Shown here: piece after piece, positions 10,121 to 45,851 of the stretch
Layout of the letters: the number at the start of each line of letters is the position of its first letter
Position numbering within the stretch: the stretch's first letter is position 1
DNA from: a virus
Virus record (IMG/VR): IMGVR_UViG_3300027712_001108
Span: 32,001 to 96,000 of that record
Direction: 5' to 3' (one strand)
Length of the DNA: 64,000 nt
Program-made: the position numbers and the translations under genes
The notes under the pieces: model-generated
Told to the model about the DNA's origin: nothing
Database searches by the model: none
What the model saw: the letters and a program-made list of their open reading frames with translations, nothing else

Positions 10121-11380
10121 TTATAATCCTTTGTTGTAAATTGACATAAATTTATCGTATGCAGGCGTAGTAAACCAGTTCCTGCTAAGGAACCATTGCT
10201 GATTGTGATGACAGATTTCTTTCACTTGCTCTAGCCAACTCCATTTGTCTTTCACATAACTGATGTTTTGTAAATTGCGTACAATAGCAGAAACTCTATC
10301 TGCAAATGGTGCATCGTCGTAGCTTTCATCCCATAGTGTGTCAAATGTTTCAAACCCCCACGACTTTAATTTAGCCAAAGTTCCAGGGTGTGCCAACAAC
10401 ATAAATGGTTGCTGCGCCCATAACGGCTTCCATAATTTTTCACTAATAAACAAGTTATGCGGTTCATCAAATGCATGTGTTTCTGTTACCACACTTGCCC
10501 AACTGTTGAGATAGATACTGGGATTAATCTGCATGGCTTTGTTGTTGTCAAAATCTGCATCATCCACTACCAAAGGCAGCACAGCATTGGCTTTGTCTAT
10601 TACACTTTGTGGCACATCATGCCGTGTCCAAAAATCATATACCAGCTTGTTGTGGCTTATCATTCCCTGTAAATGCAAATCCTGCTCTATTAAACGCATT
10701 GCCATAACTTCTCTGTGATTGCGACTAACACGATTCAAACAGTTAAACAGTTTTACTGTATGTGGCCGTTGTTTGGCTTGTCTGTGATCATCCCATGTCA
10801 CTGCTGTGCTACGACGCAAATTCAATTGCTGCATATACATCAAATGTGGAAACCCAATGACGCCAATGCGTTCTCGTATACTGTGACTATCGCACCACTC
10901 TGCATAGCCGCGTTCTTCTAAATCATTGCCACTTAAAAACAGCATACTTGCGGCGGGTATTGCATTATCGTTACATAGTTTATGTAGGTATGCATATAGT
11001 TTGGTATCATAGAACCCTTCGTTTAGATTGTCTACAACCAACAATGCACGACCTGCACGAGCATCGTCTAACACCACACTTGGTACAAAATTAATAAATG
11101 GTTCGTATCCAAATTCATTACCAGGCCACCCTGTCCAGTAACCAGCATCGTTCCATGTGCCTATATTATATGCATATCTCTCGGGTCTGTTATCCAATCC
11201 ACTATGATGCCAATGATGATCGGGTCTATCCCACCAGTTTAATCGCCAATAGTGAAACATATTAGCTACAGGAAAACGACCCGACTTTAATTCCCATCTG
11301 GGCCCGTGTGTGGTATGCGGGCATGCTGTCATAGTCCTAAAGCGTGCAGGGTCGTCAAATACCCAATGTACTGCTGTCAT
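10121..11380 (-). CDS. putative glycosyltransferase-like protein
   Basis: FNCLNR...R; VTET...ISEKLWKP...PF; GFETF..DESYD motifs; paralog of 38566..39609. Confidence 0.55.
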   Translation of the reverse strand: MTAVHWVFDDPARFRTMTACPHTTHGPRWELKSGRFPVANMFHYWRLNWWDRPDHHWHHSGLDNRPERYAYNIGTWNDAGYWTGWPGNEFGYEPFINFVPSVVLDDARAGRALLVVDNLNEGFYDTKLYAYLHKLCNDNAIPAASMLFLSGNDLEERGYAEWCDSHSIRERIGVIGFPHLMYMQQLNLRRSTAVTWDDHRQAKQRPHTVKLFNCLNRVSRNHREVMAMRLIEQDLHLQGMISHNKLVYDFWTRHDVPQSVIDKANAVLPLVVDDADFDNNKAMQINPSIYLNSWASVVTETHAFDEPHNLFISEKLWKPLWAQQPFMLLAHPGTLAKLKSWGFETFDTLWDESYDDAPFADRVSAIVRNLQNISYVKDKWSWLEQVKEICHHNQQWFLSRNWFTTPAYDKFMSIYNKGL

Positions 11381-29689: not shown

Positions 29690-31756
<2,067 letters not shown>

Positions 31757-32815: not shown

Positions 32816-33871
32816 ATGCGATATTATGAAATAGCAAACACTGCTAGTCTTGAAATGCTAGACGAAGGGTGGATTTCCAAAGCTGCAAAGTGGGCGGCTG
32901 CGGGTGCAACAGCCGCAGCATTGGGATATGTAGCAGGTGACATTACCAAACAGCCAGGCCGTGATATACAGCAAACACCTGATAGTATCGCACAGCAAAT
33001 GGATTATGCAAATAATACAGCATTGGACGAACCTGCAGGACCGTCTAGCTTGGCACCTACTACATCGCCTCGTCCTAAGGCAAGACCCGCTGATTTAACA
33101 GGCAACTCTACGCAAGGTAATACAGTAGATGTACAAACGCCAGGTCCTGACACAGTTAGACCAAAATTGAGACCCGACGATACAATAGATGTACAAACGC
33201 CAGGACCAGATACTGTCAGGCCACGGCCACGTCCAGATACTGACCTAAGTAAAATTCCGCCACCCACAATGCCACAGGACGTACTGGTTTCTAGATTGGC
33301 AACCGCAGATGCCAATGTAAAAGTAAACAACATCAGCAATAATAAAGACATAGAAAACATGTTGATAACAACTGCAACTTCTGCAGGTATAGTAGATACT
33401 GAGTTACAGGCATTTTTGGCACAGGCATATCATGAAAGCCGTAATTTTACATCAACTGTAGAGCAACGGTACGGCAAAGGCAAAAACTATTTTAAACGTG
33501 CATATGACATACGATATAACCCTGTTGCAGCAACGAGACTGGGAAATATAAAACCAGGCGACGGTGAAAAATTCAAAGGTCGTGGGTATCTGCAAATTAC
33601 GGGACGTTTTAATTATTCAAAAGCAGCCAAGGCTCTGGGGTTGCCACTGTTAGAACAACCAGAACTGTTGGAAGATCCAAAAATAGCTGCCGCAGTATCG
33701 GTATGGTTTTGGAAATGGCGAGTGCGAGCTCGCAGTTCAGGCGACTGGAACAATGTGCAAGAAATCACCAACATTGTTAATGGAGGCGACACCGCAGTCG
33801 ATGACCGAGGCGAACTGTTTGATGCGTATGGACATCTAAGATCGTTAAAACGCGAAACAAGACCTGATTGA
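32816..33871 (+). CDS. GH19 lysozyme/chitinase-fold lysin
   Basis: FLAQAYHES, FKGRGYLQITGRFNY, IVNGG; Pro/Arg linker with two 20-aa repeats. Confidence 0.88.
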   Translation: MRYYEIANTASLEMLDEGWISKAAKWAAAGATAAALGYVAGDITKQPGRDIQQTPDSIAQQMDYANNTALDEPAGPSSLAPTTSPRPKARPADLTGNSTQGNTVDVQTPGPDTVRPKLRPDDTIDVQTPGPDTVRPRPRPDTDLSKIPPPTMPQDVLVSRLATADANVKVNNISNNKDIENMLITTATSAGIVDTELQAFLAQAYHESRNFTSTVEQRYGKGKNYFKRAYDIRYNPVAATRLGNIKPGDGEKFKGRGYLQITGRFNYSKAAKALGLPLLEQPELLEDPKIAAAVSVWFWKWRVRARSSGDWNNVQEITNIVNGGDTAVDDRGELFDAYGHLRSLKRETRPD

Positions 33872-33920
33872 CAACGCTGCATCTTATCGCTATATTACTA
33901 ATGTAGACGAAAAAGAATAC

Positions 33921-33997
33921 GGGGGGTTAGCTCAATTGGTTAGAGCGCCGGACTCATAATCCGTAGGTTGCCAGTTCAAGTCTGGCACTCCCTACCA
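33921..33997 (+). tRNA. tRNA-CAT (Ile2 or Met)
   Basis: cloverleaf, CT-CAT-AA loop, CCA. Confidence 0.9.
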
Positions 33998-34002
33998 AAC
34001 TT

Positions 34003-34077
34003 GCGTGTATGGTCCAGATGGATGGGCACGGGACTCTAAATCCTAGGAGGCAGGCTCAATACCTGTTATACGCACCA
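34003..34077 (+). tRNA. amber suppressor tRNA (anticodon CTA)
   Basis: acceptor GCGTGTA/TATACGC, loop CT-CTA-AA, T arm GCAGG/CCTGT, A73-CCA. Confidence 0.85.
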
Positions 34078-34110
34078 TAAATAATTCAGTGTTTAAGGAG
34101 AAATAACACC

Positions 34111-34719
34111 ATGTCGTAGATTGAAATTGCCTGTACCGAGTTAGTATTCCACTTTAATAAAAAACACTTAGAAGATCCCACTATTCCAATGTGGGTTGTT
34201 AAGACCAAAGGTGAGACGTATTACGTCCATCATGTCAGCAGTGACATGCCATGGTCTACAAAAGAAACTCCCAACAATAACAGTACCAAAGGCAGCATTA
34301 AGTTTAAACGGTGTCATCTTGTTATTGATGACAACAATGACGCTACTATCAAGCCGTTGACAATGAGCGATGCTATACGTCTCAAAAAGACAGAGCCCAA
34401 GAAAATACGACTGATTATGGATTATCGCAAACAGATAGACGAATTTGTTGAATACTGCGATGAACAAGAGATTTGGCATGATGGGGTTCACATACTGCCG
34501 GGTAGCTGTGGTTCGAGATTCTATGCAACCGATATCAAAGAAGATGACCTGCTGCTTACTCGCATGCGGTTCCCACCTAAGATGTTCCGTGAACTGATGC
34601 CCAATGAATATCTATATGCGTACTACGATAAAGTAGGACCTGATGTAGAACCACCAGATTACGACGACGATTACTACGATGACGACGAAGACGAAGATGA
34701 CGATGAGGACGCAGCCTAA
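34111..34719 (+). CDS. hypothetical protein with in-frame TAG at codon 3 (readthrough candidate)
   Basis: AAGGAG SD, ATG TCG TAG ATT...; frame continuous with ORF 34189..34719; acidic tail ending -AA. Confidence 0.75.
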
Positions 34720-39809: not shown

Positions 39810-40355
39810 ATGATACCTATTAGCGAATATATGAAATTGTCAAGAGACGACAGACGTGTACATCTTAAATTAAATGAACCGTGTGATGTTCGAGGCATAC
39901 GATATTCGTATAATTTGATAGGATTAGTTGCGTACTATATTAATACAAGTGTGCCGCAAAAAGGCGACAATGCAATAGTTTGTCATGCCTGTAATAATTC
40001 AGGTTGTTCAAATCCCAATCATTTATATTGGGGATCTTACAAAGATAATCATTCAGATCAAGTAGAATCTGGTACATGGCAATCACCATATGCACGTACT
40101 GTTAACAAATATGGAATTGATACTACAATCTCTATGTTAACTAAATCCGGTAAAGAAGGTGGTAAAAAACTATTAGGTCGTAGTAAATCGGACAATCATA
40201 AGAAAAGTTTGTCCAATTCTCAATATGGTACAATGTGGATAACAAATGGCATCGATAATAGAAAAATAAAAAAAGAGCAGGATGTAATACCAGAGGGATG
40301 GTATAAAGGTAGAATTCAACCACCAGCCAATCATATAAATACAGTATGCTTATAA
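39810..40355 (+). CDS. HNH homing endonuclease
   Basis: CHACNNSGCSNPNHLYWG..KDN; C-terminal WITNG...GWYKGR. Confidence 0.85.
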   Translation: MIPISEYMKLSRDDRRVHLKLNEPCDVRGIRYSYNLIGLVAYYINTSVPQKGDNAIVCHACNNSGCSNPNHLYWGSYKDNHSDQVESGTWQSPYARTVNKYGIDTTISMLTKSGKEGGKKLLGRSKSDNHKKSLSNSQYGTMWITNGIDNRKIKKEQDVIPEGWYKGRIQPPANHINTVCL

Positions 40356-40984: not shown

Positions 40985-42463
40985 ATGGATATTGTAATTT
41001 GTATTTTGCCAAAGATAGAGCCTAGTGCTCCGTCTGTTGGTCCTTCTATTTTAAAAAGCCATTGTATTGCAGCAGGATTTTCCTGTAAGGTGGCGGATTT
41101 TAATATAGAATTGTACAACTCTATACCAACTGATATGCAAAGTATATGGCATAGCAACGATAGTGTATTTGATAATATGCACGAGTGGTTGCCGTTATAT
41201 GAACAGACATTTAAATCTACATTTGAACAGTTTGCAGATAGACTGATAGCAGAAAACTCAACATGGATAGGACTAAGTGTATTCAGTATCAAAAGCATGT
41301 TGCCTGCAATAGAGTTGATTAAACTAATCAAACATAAGAAACCAGAACAAAAAATTGTTGTTGGTGGCGCCGGTATCTATAACGACATAACTGCGCTAAC
41401 CGCAGCAGGTGCAGACCACTGGATAGTAGGCGACGCCGAAGAAAGCATTGTGGAATTGTTAAAAGGCAATATGTCTTTTAGAGGTATAGACAACACACAT
41501 CCTTACCAAATAGACGATTTGGATTCAGCTTCCATTCCCAACTATGACGACATAGATTTTAGCCAATATGCGAATTCTAATAACAGACAAGTATATATAA
41601 CAGCAAGTAGAGGCTGTATTAGAGACTGCACATTTTGTGATGTTGCATCAATGTGGCCTAAATTTAGATTTAGAAGCAGTGCAAATGTAGTAGACGAAAT
41701 CATACAACTGCGCCAACGATACGACATTAGAAATTTCTATTTTACAGACAGTCTTATAAATGGCGGTGTTAAAATATTCAGGGATATGTGCGCAGTATTG
41801 GCACAATACAGGCAAGAAACTGGCAGCGACTGGACATTGGGTAGCCAATTCATATGCAGATCTGCTGAACAGATGCCGCCAAACGATTATGATTTAATGA
41901 AAGCAGCGGGATTTTCTTGGGTTGCAATAGGTATAGAATCTGCCAGTCAAGCTGTGCGAGATCATATGAGAAAAGGATTTACCAATGAAGATATGTGGTA
42001 CACATTCGATCAGTTACATCGGGTTGGTATAAATCTAAACATACTGCTAATAGCTGGATACCTTACAGAAACCAAAGCTGATTTTGATGAAACTCTTGAC
42101 ATGATACATCGTTTAGCTAGGGAAGATTACCTAAGCAACATAGATGCCATTAATATATTTGAAGCAATCATTTTCAAAAAAACACCGTCGTATGATATAA
42201 GCAAGCAGCTTGGTGTTATAGATATAGACAATGACACATGGCATTTGCCAGACAATACCAACAATTTAAGAGTGAGAGTTGTTCGTACATTAAAAGCGTA
42301 TACACTGATAGAACGGTACAGAGGCGATGACAAAATGTTCTGGCTTGCCAAATCTGTAATACATTCTTGTACAACTCGTTACAAAGAACTAACCGGTCGC
42401 GATTTACCAACTGATATACTAAACTATGACGAATCGCTAGAATATAACCAATTGCCTTCGTAG
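40985..42463 (+). CDS. B12-binding radical SAM protein
   Basis: SRGCIRDCTFC, GIESAS; stop codon inside tRNA-Arg. Confidence 0.9.
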   Translation: MDIVICILPKIEPSAPSVGPSILKSHCIAAGFSCKVADFNIELYNSIPTDMQSIWHSNDSVFDNMHEWLPLYEQTFKSTFEQFADRLIAENSTWIGLSVFSIKSMLPAIELIKLIKHKKPEQKIVVGGAGIYNDITALTAAGADHWIVGDAEESIVELLKGNMSFRGIDNTHPYQIDDLDSASIPNYDDIDFSQYANSNNRQVYITASRGCIRDCTFCDVASMWPKFRFRSSANVVDEIIQLRQRYDIRNFYFTDSLINGGVKIFRDMCAVLAQYRQETGSDWTLGSQFICRSAEQMPPNDYDLMKAAGFSWVAIGIESASQAVRDHMRKGFTNEDMWYTFDQLHRVGINLNILLIAGYLTETKADFDETLDMIHRLAREDYLSNIDAINIFEAIIFKKTPSYDISKQLGVIDIDNDTWHLPDNTNNLRVRVVRTLKAYTLIERYRGDDKMFWLAKSVIHSCTTRYKELTGRDLPTDILNYDESLEYNQLPS

Positions 42464-44589: not shown

Positions 44590-44769
44590 ATGAAACGTAA
44601 ACAGCTAAAAGCGCCTAAACCGCGCAATCCCATTGTTAATATTGTCATGTTCCGCAGCGGTGCCGGTGTACATGACAAGCCCAACAAAGCCAAACGAGCA
44701 GCTAACAAAGTTGCTATGAAAAAGCAGGTCAGGGACAGTTTTGACCCTGACCGCAGTTTTGCAGCATGA
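44590..44769 (+). CDS. small basic protein (59 aa), ArfA/BrfA-like candidate
   Basis: AAGGAG SD; PRNPIV...GAGVH; hairpin in the 3' end of the CDS; C-terminal FAA. Confidence 0.6.
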   Translation: MKRKQLKAPKPRNPIVNIVMFRSGAGVHDKPNKAKRAANKVAMKKQVRDSFDPDRSFAA

Positions 44770-45851
44770 CAGATACTAAACCATTTTGTTCTGCACCATG
44801 GACAAGTATTCAACATGGCTCTGTACTTCATCAAGGTGGTACATGCCCATGCTGCGAGTGGAATGGTAAAATATACAAAGGCGGTATTAAACAGTATTTG
44901 GAATCAGACTGGCTGCGCAGTGTTAAAGAAACCATGCAATCATATGACATGGATATAATCAATTCAACTTGTAAATCTTGTTTAGAAGTCGAAAAGCTAA
45001 ACATGCGGTCTAAGAGAAATCTAATAGACAACTGGATCGAATCTACCACTCTTGAATTTGACAAAATTGGATTAGTGGATTATCGGGCTAGCAATTTATG
45101 CAATTTAAAATGCAGAATGTGTTTTCCCAGTAACAGTTCTATGATTGCCAAAGAGATGAATATAGACATAGATAACAGCAACAATTTCGTTGATGATATT
45201 TACGAATATGATTTAAAAGATGTTGCTATTGTTAATATCGTAGGCGGCGAACCCAGTATAGATGATAAAGTTTTTAAGTTCCTAGATTGGTTAATTCTAA
45301 ACAACTGGCATGAACAAATGGAGTTGACTATTACAACTAATGCAACAAATACCAATAAAAACTGGATTGATCGCATTTCGAAATTTAAAAGATTAAATGT
45401 TATAATAAGTGTAGATGGTATAGGTGATGTATATGAATATATTAGAACAAATGCCAAATGGGACAGTGTAAGTAAAAACATATCCGTATACGAATCTATG
45501 CCAAATATTAGTGTAGCTTTTCAAATAACAGGCAGTATGTATAATATACCTGTAATAGAAAAATGGTTACCATGGTTTTTAGATAAGGAATATGCAAACA
45601 TATATCCGGTAGAAAGCCAACTGCATTTGACATTGGCGGCATTATCACCGGATATTAAACAAGAGAAAATTGCGTATTTAAAAACCATAAACTCTCATAT
45701 GGCAGCATCTACTATACAGATGTTAGAAAATGCAACATATGACAAGGCGGTACATTGCGCATTCGTTGATGATACTAATAAGTTAGACGGCATACGACAA
45801 ACAGACATTACCAGTATTGATACTGTTTTCGAACGAATACTGCGCCCGTAG
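44766..45851 (+). CDS. radical SAM protein with Twitch-like domain
   Basis: CNLKCRMC, GGEP; stop codon inside tRNA-Lys. Confidence 0.9.
   Translation: MTDTKPFCSAPWTSIQHGSVLHQGGTCPCCEWNGKIYKGGIKQYLESDWLRSVKETMQSYDMDIINSTCKSCLEVEKLNMRSKRNLIDNWIESTTLEFDKIGLVDYRASNLCNLKCRMCFPSNSSMIAKEMNIDIDNSNNFVDDIYEYDLKDVAIVNIVGGEPSIDDKVFKFLDWLILNNWHEQMELTITTNATNTNKNWIDRISKFKRLNVIISVDGIGDVYEYIRTNAKWDSVSKNISVYESMPNISVAFQITGSMYNIPVIEKWLPWFLDKEYANIYPVESQLHLTLAALSPDIKQEKIAYLKTINSHMAASTIQMLENATYDKAVHCAFVDDTNKLDGIRQTDITSIDTVFERILRP

What the first reader, a model, noticed from the sequence alone, without database searches (positions are those of the whole stretch)
34003..34719. Amber-suppressor tRNA coupled to an adjacent gene with a TAG at codon 3
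Seen: a full tRNA with a CUA anticodon ends at 34077. 33 nt later comes AAGGAG-N10-ATG TCG TAG ATT GAA..., and the frame stays open for about 200 codons (in frame with ORF 34189). The extension reads like protein (IEIACTELVFHFNKKHLEDPTIP). Other long ORFs in the window have no internal TAG, so this is not genome-wide recoding. Inference: a gene-specific readthrough switch in which the full-length protein is made only when the phage suppressor is charged and outcompetes RF1. The -AA C-terminus resembles a ClpXP degron, which would suit a sensor or regulator.
Basis: partly seen in the sequence, partly recalled or inferred. Interest (0 to 1): 0.92.

Follow-up and report, generated by a model that had tools for sequence, protein, structure and literature searches.

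The report
Stop-codon-gated phage gene with own tRNA
A large freshwater phage that otherwise uses the normal genetic code carries a tRNA that reads the UAG stop codon directly in front of a conserved gene whose third codon is UAG, and thousands of relatives keep this pairing, so the protein is very probably made only when the phage's own tRNA overrides the stop.

Summary
A tRNA with anticodon CUA lies at 34003-34077. It is followed by AAGGAG, ATG 34111 and TAG 34117, then 199 open codons ending at 34719.

The stretch between the TAG and the first later Met is coding: it belongs to a conserved domain and shows strong three-base periodicity.

- Of 83 related loci, 78 keep a stop near codon 3, and it is always TAG.
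- At least 62 of the 80 metagenomic (IMG/VR) loci have a CUA tRNA within 3 kb upstream on the same strand.
- The tRNAs show compensatory stem changes around an invariant UCUAA.
- At least 2026 protein clusters belong to the family.
- This genome has only one such gene and uses TAG as an ordinary stop, so it is not recoded.

In two jumbo phages an early stop in a neighbouring PTH2 gene matches the phage's suppressor: TAG with CUA, TGA with UCA.

Best reading: a single-gene translational gate opened by a co-transcribed suppressor tRNA.

The protein's function stays unknown. Its N-domain has no known fold relative, its C-domain is ferredoxin-like, and its tail is acidic. The ClpXP-degron idea fails, because the -AA end is unique to this copy.

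This scan had already noted the same pairing on other DNA. I found no paper describing it. Nothing here is experimental.

The parts
33868..33896 (+). Sigma-70-like promoter (TTGACA, 17 nt, TATATT) in front of tRNA-Met, tRNA(CUA) and the gated gene.
   Evidence: 11 of 12 consensus matches. This is a consensus match only; that it drives co-transcription of the three genes is inferred.
33921..33997 (+). tRNA-Met (CAU), 5 nt upstream of the suppressor tRNA.
   Evidence: 68.4 bits.
34003..34077 (+). tRNA with anticodon CUA (amber suppressor type), CCA encoded, T-loop CUCAAUA.
   Evidence: RF00005, 41.1 bits against a gathering score of 29. (ARAGORN cloverleaf); in 44 homologous tRNAs, 17 of 19 pairs show compensatory changes and UCUAA is invariant.
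34096..34101 (+). Shine-Dalgarno AAGGAG, 9 nt before the ATG.
   Evidence: A purine-rich box at the same distance is conserved in 51 distinct relatives.
34111..34113 (+). Start codon ATG.
   Evidence: In most TAG-bearing relatives the nearest ATG with an SD lies two codons before the TAG.
34117..34119 (+). In-frame TAG at codon 3, the gate, followed by A.
   Evidence: TAG in 51 of 51 distinct contexts, with a purine after it in 51 of 51. Confirmed in contigs from other samples.
34111..34719 (+). Full coding sequence of the gated protein: 202 codons including the TAG, stop TAA at 34717-19.
   Evidence: Codons 4-26 are coding: site entropy 0.38/0.26/1.18 bits at codon positions 1/2/3, against about 1.74 at all three phases in the leader.
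34111..34356 (+). N-terminal beta-rich domain (residues 1-82, motif FHFNKKHL..P..PMW), the conserved core of the family.
   Evidence: pLDDT 93 when folded alone. No convincing PDB match. It occurs alone, with this C-domain, or behind a ~100-aa extension of unknown kind.
34393..34638 (+). C-terminal alpha/beta domain (residues 95-176), ferredoxin-like.
   Evidence: best Z 7.1, rmsd 3.1, 79 residues aligned (a mitoribosomal protein). S10, ACT and RRM-type folds follow at Z 5-6. This is a common fold, so it gives no function.
34639..34716 (+). Acidic C-terminal tail (18 D/E in the last 30 residues).
   Evidence: acidic tails with aromatic residues in nearly all members; the final -AA only in this copy.

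Best explanation
This is a two-part translational gate. A promoter-like site at 33868 precedes tRNA-Met, tRNA(CUA) and a 202-codon gene, which probably form one transcript.

Ribosomes start at ATG 34111 behind a strong Shine-Dalgarno box and meet UAG as the third codon. If release factor 1 wins, only a dipeptide is made. If the phage's charged tRNA(CUA) wins, the ribosome goes on and makes the whole protein. Output therefore follows the amount and charging of the phage's own suppressor relative to RF1. The gene stays silent until that tRNA has been made and matured.

Selection keeps the stop itself, not a particular residue.

The product has three parts: a beta-rich N-domain with no known relative, a ferredoxin-like C-domain and an acidic tail. 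Its biochemical role is unknown. My best guess is that it acts in the same pathway as the PTH2-type peptidyl-tRNA hydrolases, which in other phages are gated the same way and share its operon. That would mean it handles tRNA or by-products of readthrough.

Shown by comparison: the anatomy, that the extension is coding, that TAG is conserved, and the linkage to the tRNA. Inferred: co-transcription, suppression in vivo, the inserted residue (possibly Lys) and the purpose.
For: - **The stretch after the TAG is translated.** Nine of the family's invariant residues (E5, V12, F13, H14, F15, N16, K17, H19, L20, D22, P26) lie before Met27. Across 45 distinct sequences, codons 4-26 show site entropy of 0.38/0.26/1.18 bits, 8292 synonymous against 4720 non-synonymous codon differences, and no stop.
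- **No canonical start lies between the TAG and Met27**. The codon after the TAG varies: ATT, GTA, ATC, AAC, ACT, GTT, AAA.
- **The stop is always TAG.** This holds in 78 of 83 loci and 51 of 51 distinct contexts, although TAA is the commonest stop in this genome. Meanwhile the codon before the TAG takes 12 forms.
- **Database relatives carry the same TAG.** Members that read MSQIE... carry TAG at the Q ('with_TAG=Q').
- **The CUA tRNA is linked.** It lies on the same strand within 3 kb upstream in at least 62 of 80 IMG/VR loci and is often the only tRNA there. In several others it was missed or misparsed by ARAGORN, or lies further away in the contig.
- **The tRNAs are under selection.** 17 of 19 stem pairs show compensatory changes, UCUAA is invariant and CCA is encoded.
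- **Stop type follows suppressor type.** The PTH2 gene of phage Phosso has TAG at codon 4, and that phage has two CUA tRNAs. Its orthologue in Atu_ph07 has TGA at codon 7, and that phage has a UCA suppressor (PMC6102473).
- **The context favours suppression.** A purine follows the TAG in 51 of 51 contexts. That this helps amber suppression in E. coli is my own knowledge (Bossi 1983; Miller and Albertini 1983).
- **The gate is gene-specific.** This gene is the only candidate in the 158-kb record.
Against: - Nothing is experimental. Expression, charging and the decoding efficiency of the tRNA are all unknown.
- TAG also ends 14 of 166 long ORFs of this phage, and presumably many host genes, so a strong suppressor should carry a cost.
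- Three relatives (L006, L022, L066) have no TAG in this gene yet keep a CUA tRNA nearby. The tRNA is therefore not there for this gene alone.
- One short contig (L042, 11.5 kb) showed no CUA tRNA.
- This tRNA scores only 41 bits and has an odd T-loop (C54).
- The protein's function is unknown, so the purpose of the gate is unproven.
Confidence: 0.85

Rival explanations
1. The three codons ATG-NNN-TAG form a mini-ORF. The real protein is started afresh at the codon after the stop (mostly AUU) by a terminating ribosome, without any suppression.
For: The codon after the TAG is ATT or ATC, both weak near-cognate starts, in 40 of 51 contexts. In TAG-less members L022 and L066 an ATG sits exactly where the TAG sits elsewhere, so a protein beginning there works.
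Against: Eleven of 51 contexts have GTA, GTT, AAC, ACT or AAA after the TAG, and none of these is a start. A mere termination signal would drift among TAA, TGA and TAG, yet it is TAG in 51 of 51. This reading does not explain the linkage to a CUA tRNA or the TAG/CUA versus TGA/UCA match in the PTH2 genes.
Confidence: 0.05
2. The early TAG is a neutral relic. An ancestor read TAG as an amino acid throughout (code 15); its descendants returned to the standard code and this one codon was left behind, tolerated because the tRNA is still present.
For: Phage-encoded CUA tRNAs are typical of recoded phages (bioRxiv 10.1101/2021.08.26.457843). The gene callers of public databases translate these short contigs with TAG=Q.
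Against: A relic would sit at varied places and be lost often, since most single changes of TAG give a sense codon. Instead it sits at codon 2-6 in nearly all of more than 2000 clusters, while its neighbouring codons turn over. The PTH2 family shows the same early placement independently. No other in-frame TAG was found in this genome.
Confidence: 0.05
3. The pair is a selfish or addictive module. The TAG ties a useful gene to the tRNA so that the tRNA cannot be lost, and the timing or level of expression has no regulatory meaning.
For: In this genome the tRNA's only visible client is this gene. The pair travels together and is often the only tRNA in a locus. Its neighbours differ between phages.
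Against: This does not explain why the stop is always placed at the very start, in a context good for suppression. The tRNA persists where this gene has lost its TAG. This reading overlaps the gate reading: the mechanism is the same and only the selective reason differs.
Confidence: 0.04
4. The TAG is an assembly or sequencing error or a pseudogene lesion, and the true gene starts at Met 34189.
For: Under table 11 the listed ORF starts at 34189. Some database entries are called from that Met (many representatives begin at profile position 27).
Against: The TAG is present in contigs from other samples and in 78 independent loci. There is no Shine-Dalgarno box before 34189. Residues before Met27 are invariant across the family.
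Confidence: 0.01

Closest known systems
Stop-codon-recoded phages with phage suppressor tRNAs (TAG read as Gln, 'code 15': crAss-like, Lak, Garnet, Topaz; bioRxiv 10.1101/2021.08.26.457843; PMC9523058)
   Same: A phage-encoded tRNA(CUA) reads UAG in phage genes while the host uses the standard code. The proposed use is to make expression depend on the phage's tRNA.
   Different: In recoded phages, many genes, mostly late ones, carry many in-frame TAGs and TAG is given up as a stop. Here one gene per genome carries one TAG, always at about codon 3, and TAG still ends 14 of 166 long ORFs. These tRNAs resemble tRNA-Lys more than tRNA-Gln (weak).
prfB (release factor 2) autoregulation through an in-frame UGA at codon 26
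   Same: An early in-frame stop makes the yield of the protein report the balance between termination and continued decoding at that stop.
   Different: prfB escapes by a +1 frameshift and its product is the factor that reads the stop. Here the frame is kept, escape is by a dedicated tRNA, and it is unknown whether the product acts on termination.
Programmed readthrough in phage Q-beta (A1 protein) and in RNA viruses
   Same: A stop codon is decoded at a set frequency to give a longer protein.
   Different: In those cases the stop ends a complete protein, a host near-cognate tRNA reads it, and both products are used. Here the stop is at codon 3, so failure gives only a dipeptide, and the virus brings a cognate tRNA.
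Amber-gated PTH2-type peptidyl-tRNA hydrolase genes beside phage suppressor tRNAs
   Same: The design is the same: SD, ATG, one to six codons, a stop matching the phage's suppressor, then a conserved domain with no start of its own. The two gene families share an operon in three loci.
   Different: The protein family is different: no Pfam, PHROG or PDB sequence match. In this genome the PTH2 gene (G000:101420-101761) starts normally and only the present gene is gated.
Laboratory amber-suppression gates (orthogonal tRNA(CUA) with a TAG-bearing reporter or essential gene, used for genetic code expansion and biocontainment)
   Same: The logic is the same: protein is made only if both the tRNA and the mRNA are present. 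An early TAG followed by a purine is also what engineers choose.
   Different: This one is natural, widespread and ancient. The tRNA is presumably charged by a host synthetase with a standard amino acid.

Membership tests
Amber suppressor tRNA (functional tRNA with anticodon CUA) | Cloverleaf that reaches the Rfam tRNA gathering score. | tested here: met
   41.1 bits against 29. ARAGORN cloverleaf at 90% threshold. ARAGORN at default settings misses it.
Amber suppressor tRNA (functional tRNA with anticodon CUA) | CUA at positions 34-36 of a 7-nt loop, with U33 and a purine at 37. | tested here: met
   loop CUCUAAA. UCUAA is invariant in 44 homologues.
Amber suppressor tRNA (functional tRNA with anticodon CUA) | Stems kept by compensatory changes across relatives. 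| tested here: met
   17 of 19 pairs have sequences with both sides changed. G1-C72 is invariant.
Amber suppressor tRNA (functional tRNA with anticodon CUA) | Aminoacylated, and decodes UAG in vivo. | not testable with these tools
   Needs a reporter assay, a charging assay or proteomics.
Stop-codon-recoded phage (genetic code 15) | Many genes with in-frame TAG; TAG abandoned as a stop. | tested here: not met
   one gated gene in 158 kb; TAG ends 14 of 166 long ORFs. The record is about 30% of the genome, so the rest is unseen.
Stop-codon-recoded phage (genetic code 15) | Phage-encoded suppressor tRNA. | tested here: met
tRNA-Pyl (ARAGORN's label for any CUA tRNA) | Pyl-type shape: one base between the acceptor and D stems, a small D-loop without GG, a 6-bp anticodon stem and a 3-nt variable loop (features from my own knowledge). 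| tested here: not met
   two bases after the acceptor stem, GG in the D-loop and a 4-5-nt variable loop. I did not search for PylS.
prfB-type autoregulatory in-frame stop | An early in-frame stop inside the gene. | tested here: met
   TAG at codon 3.
prfB-type autoregulatory in-frame stop | The product acts on decoding of that stop, closing a feedback loop. | not testable with these tools
   The protein has no known family or fold relative.
PTH2 peptidyl-tRNA hydrolase (PF01981) | Match to the Pfam PTH2 profile. | tested here: not met
   no Pfam family at E up to 1. The neighbouring or co-operonic genes in L006 and Phosso do match.
   -AA in 1 of 55 aligned members and 1 of 121 database members. 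The preceding residues are acidic (DEDAA), not hydrophobic.

The most novel reading that the evidence does not exclude
The tRNA(CUA) and its codon-3 UAG client form a natural, self-contained sensor of the balance between suppression and termination. Its outputs are this protein and, in other phages, PTH2-type hydrolases from the same operons. They tune or clean up after stop-codon readthrough during infection. That would be a phage translational control circuit of a kind not yet described, and the long-missing job for 'orphan' suppressor tRNAs in phages that use the standard code.
Probability: 0.3. Interest if true: 0.9.

Novelty: new variant of a known kind. Interest (0 to 1): 0.8.

Why it matters
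Suppressor tRNAs turn up in many phages that use the standard code, and no target has been known for them. This finding gives them a concrete, conserved client.

It also shows a way of controlling one gene that is neither whole-genome recoding nor classical readthrough: a one-codon lock at the very start of a gene, opened by a tRNA made from the same transcript.

The family is large, with at least 2026 clusters at 90% identity, 147 representatives at 50% and 349 IMG/VR loci. It is unannotated, and under table 11 it is called too short or not at all, so gene callers mis-handle it systematically.

The design is a natural counterpart of the amber-suppression gates used in synthetic biology. A reporter assay could test it in a day. 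At least two cultured phages carry it: Rhizobium phage RHph_I1_18, and Sinorhizobium phage Phosso for the PTH2 version.

Tried and rejected
- **Function by sequence.** No match for the protein in Pfam (E up to 1), PHROGs (E up to 1) or PDB sequences (best E 0.31).
- **Function by fold.** The Foldseek PDB search of the whole model had nothing at E <= 0.001. VIA-wide on the whole model matched only the C-domain, at Z <= 7.1, a common ferredoxin-like arrangement. For the N-domain alone, VIA-wide gave best Z 3.8 (scattered OB folds and ADP-ribosyltransferases, all weak) and Foldseek PDB gave best E 0.17. BFVD found only one unnamed family member.
- **ESM Atlas.** The fold search did not answer twice.
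- **Fused forms.** Among longer proteins only one 510-aa hit appeared, which tells nothing.
- **Origin of this tRNA.** It has no close paralogue among the genome's 34 other tRNAs; best identity is 71%.
- **Release factor or class IIb synthetase genes.** None in the 158-kb record, but the record is only about 30% of the genome.
- **RNA structure around the TAG.** Nothing stands out: z = +1.1 for 34078-34200, so no readthrough-stimulating fold is evident.
- **PTH2 next to the gene.** Seen in only 3 loci and not general.
- **Conserved neighbours.** These are a Zn-ribbon protein, AhpC-like and CMD-like proteins, and the gp23 capsid protein; none points to a function.
- **Literature.** Five searches and two papers read found no description of a codon-3 amber gate. 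The library lacks most subscription journals.

Full report
**1. What is in the window**

Rfam's tRNA model matches 34003-34074 at 41.1 bits, against a gathering score of 29. ARAGORN misses it at default settings. At 90% threshold it draws a 75-nt cloverleaf at 34003-34077 with anticodon CUA, U33, A37, discriminator A and an encoded CCA.

A tRNA-Met lies 5 nt upstream, at 33921-33997. A near-consensus promoter-like site (TTGACA, 17 nt, TATATT) lies at 33868-33896.

Thirty-three bases after the tRNA come ATG 34111, TCG and TAG 34117. AAGGAG sits 9 nt before the ATG. The frame then stays open for 199 codons to TAA 34717. Under table 11 the ORF is listed only from ATG 34189, which has no Shine-Dalgarno box.

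Contigs from two other freshwater samples cover the TAG without any difference.

**2. The stretch behind the TAG is protein**

A tblastn search of cultured phages matched residues 7-81, well upstream of Met27. IMG/VR holds 349 relatives, and I kept the best 80 (44-86% identity, full length).

In the alignment of 55 members, nine of the invariant residues lie before Met27: E5, V12, F13, H14, F15, N16, K17, H19, L20, D22 and P26. Over 45 distinct sequences, codons 4-26 show:

- site entropy of 0.38/0.26/1.18 bits at codon positions 1/2/3;
- 8292 synonymous against 4720 non-synonymous codon differences;
- no stop codon.

The leader upstream of the ATG is flat at about 1.74 bits.

**3. The stop is conserved as a stop, and always as TAG**

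Of 83 loci, 78 have an in-frame stop one to nine codons after an ATG that has a Shine-Dalgarno box. It is nearly always codon 3, and in all 78 it is TAG.

In 51 distinct contexts:

- TAG is invariant;
- the codon before it takes 12 forms;
- the codon after it takes 7 forms;
- the base after the TAG is a purine in all 51, A in 45 of them.

From my own knowledge, a following purine is the context that favours amber suppression in E. coli.

The large protein collection holds at least 2026 clusters of the family. Their N-termini read MSQIE or MAQIE. Two look-ups showed that this Q is a TAG that the database's gene caller read as Gln. The profile search found 147 representatives at 50% identity. 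Many are called only from position 27, which is how a table-11 caller truncates these genes.

**4. The tRNA travels with the gene**

A CUA tRNA lies on the same strand within 3 kb upstream in at least 62 of the 80 IMG/VR loci, and it is often the only tRNA there.

The remaining loci break down as follows:

- L004 and L041 have it directly upstream, but ARAGORN missed or misparsed it.
- L025 has one that ARAGORN labels Arg(tct); by likeness to L033's tRNA I take it to be CUA.
- L005 and L034 have it just outside the fetched flank. L011 has it 50 kb away.
- Four loci have almost no upstream sequence.
- In L012 and L044, and at the matching site of L032's contig, a CUA-type anticodon loop followed by a T-arm motif is present, but ARAGORN draws no clean CUA tRNA there. 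L036 gave a CUA tRNA-like call only at the lowest threshold. These remain unverified.
- One short contig, L042, showed none.

Across 44 distinct tRNAs, 17 of 19 stem pairs show compensatory changes. UCUAA is invariant, G1-C72 is invariant, and CCA is always encoded.

With the anticodon masked, the tRNAs are closest to phage tRNA-Lys. Fifteen of 45 best matches are Lys, although Lys accounts for only 7 of about 170 references. The mean best score is 27.2 for Lys against 16.1 for Gln. This is a weak lead that Lys, not Gln, is inserted.

**5. The genome is not recoded**

In the whole 157,923-bp record this is the only gene with SD-ATG-x-TAG followed by a long frame that lacks a nearby start. CheckV estimates that the record is about 30% of the genome. 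TAG ends 14 of 166 long ORFs.

**6. A second client family, and a match between stop and anticodon**

In L006 the family member has no TAG. The gene directly upstream of it is PTH2-like and starts ATG-AAA-TAG.

In the jumbo phages Phosso and Atu_ph07 the N-domain is the C-terminal half of a 176-aa protein, two genes after a PTH2 gene.

- **Phosso:** its PTH2 really starts ATG-AAG-TAT-TAG, 54 codons before the annotated Met. The Pfam domain begins before that Met. The phage has two CUA tRNAs.
- **Atu_ph07:** its orthologue has TGA at codon 7. Its published tRNA set holds a UCA opal suppressor (PMC6102473).

So the early stop follows the suppressor's anticodon. This is hard to explain unless the suppressor reads it.

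Earlier notes of this scan report the same pairing for both families on other DNA. I reached the PTH2 cases independently and then found that those notes agree. In this genome the PTH2 gene (G000:101420-101761) starts normally.

**7. The protein**

AlphaFold2 gives a confident two-domain model, with pLDDT 86 for the whole protein and 93 for the N-domain alone.

- **N-domain (residues 1-82):** beta-rich, with no convincing relative. VIA best Z is 3.8 and Foldseek best E is 0.17.
- **C-domain (residues 95-176):** a ferredoxin-like alpha/beta sandwich, best Z 7.1, with S10, ACT and RRM-type folds at Z 5-6. That is a common arrangement and says nothing about function.
- **Tail:** acidic with aromatic residues in nearly all members. 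The final -AA is unique to this copy, so the degron idea fails.

The N-domain also occurs alone (for example the 82-codon gated gene of RHph_I1_18) and behind a ~100-aa extension of unknown kind, so it is the functional core.

Its invariant His, Lys and Glu residues (H14, K17, H19, H41, K51, E52, K60) would suit an enzyme or a nucleic-acid binder. That is only an impression.

**8. How it most likely works**

Ribosomes load at the strong SD and ATG and reach UAG after one translocation. RF1 then releases a dipeptide, or the phage tRNA(CUA) inserts a residue and the protein is made.

Because the stop sits at codon 3, failure costs almost nothing and leaves no truncated protein. Because the tRNA is probably cut from the same transcript and is stable, the gate should open as the tRNA accumulates.

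Selection for the stop itself follows from two facts. It persists across sequences only 45% identical, although most single mutations of TAG would free the gene. And the neighbouring codons turn over while it stays.

The purpose is unproven. The link with PTH2 genes suggests work on tRNA or on by-products of readthrough. A feedback sensor in the manner of prfB is the boldest reading that the data allow.

**9. Caveats**

- Nothing here is experimental.
- A strong suppressor should be costly, since TAG also ends ordinary genes.
- Three relatives lack the TAG yet keep the tRNA, so the tRNA has other uses or other clients.
- I found no publication of this design in five searches, but the library is incomplete.

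Noticed in passing
L006:2523-2640 (IMGVR_UViG_3300045994_000055): A second ATG-CAA-TAG-ATT start lies 108 nt upstream of, and in frame with, the PTH2-like gene's ATG-AAA-TAG. The frame after that first TAG runs across a hairpin (AGCCCGG...CGGGCU) followed by U6, which looks like a terminator. This may be an amber-dependent attenuator in front of the PTH2-like gene and the present family's gene. The fold z-score is only -1.6.
   Followed up: partly
window 34003-34077; L004:2893-2967; L071:2883-2957; G004:325756-325830: This lineage of CUA tRNAs has an unusual T-arm: stem GCAGG/CCUGU and a loop with C or another base in place of U54. ARAGORN misses or misparses these tRNAs at default settings, so annotation pipelines will overlook such suppressors.
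   Followed up: partly
window 33921-63534: A 30-kb array of 32 tRNA genes, all on the + strand. Interspersed ORFs include a His-Me/HNH-type endonuclease-like gene (39810-40355) and two radical-SAM proteins, one with a B12-binding domain (40985-42463, 44766-45851).
   Followed up: no
window 32816-33871: A 351-aa protein with a glycoside hydrolase family 19 (chitinase-like) domain, probably the endolysin, ends in TGA just before the promoter-like site of the tRNA and gated-gene unit. Upstream on the minus strand are a collagen-repeat protein (29690-31729) and a 1307-aa ORF, which look like tail-fibre genes.
   Followed up: no
L012, L030-L032, L036, L044 (for example G009:8102-8128, G006:11543-11569): A subgroup of loci has, in place of a standard CUA tRNA, a shorter tRNA-like sequence (...GAGGCUGAGUGGUUCACACGGGCUUCUAAAACCCAUGAU.GCAGGUUCRA...). 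It has a CUA-containing anticodon loop that ARAGORN cannot fold into a normal cloverleaf.
   Followed up: partly
L001:1477-1814 (Rhizobium phage RHph_I1_18, MN988519.1 about 10911-11248): In this cultured phage the gated gene has only the N-domain (82 codons), is unannotated, and lies upstream of the tRNA(cta), which is annotated 'tRNA-Pyl'. The order is the reverse of the window's. The gene has ATG-TAG with a second ATG four codons further up.
   Followed up: partly
L009:1971-2777 and 18 other loci; L006:1617-2501: A ~270-290-aa protein with a C-terminal zinc ribbon and no other known domain sits between the CUA tRNA and the gated gene in 19 of 54 distinct loci.
   Followed up: partly
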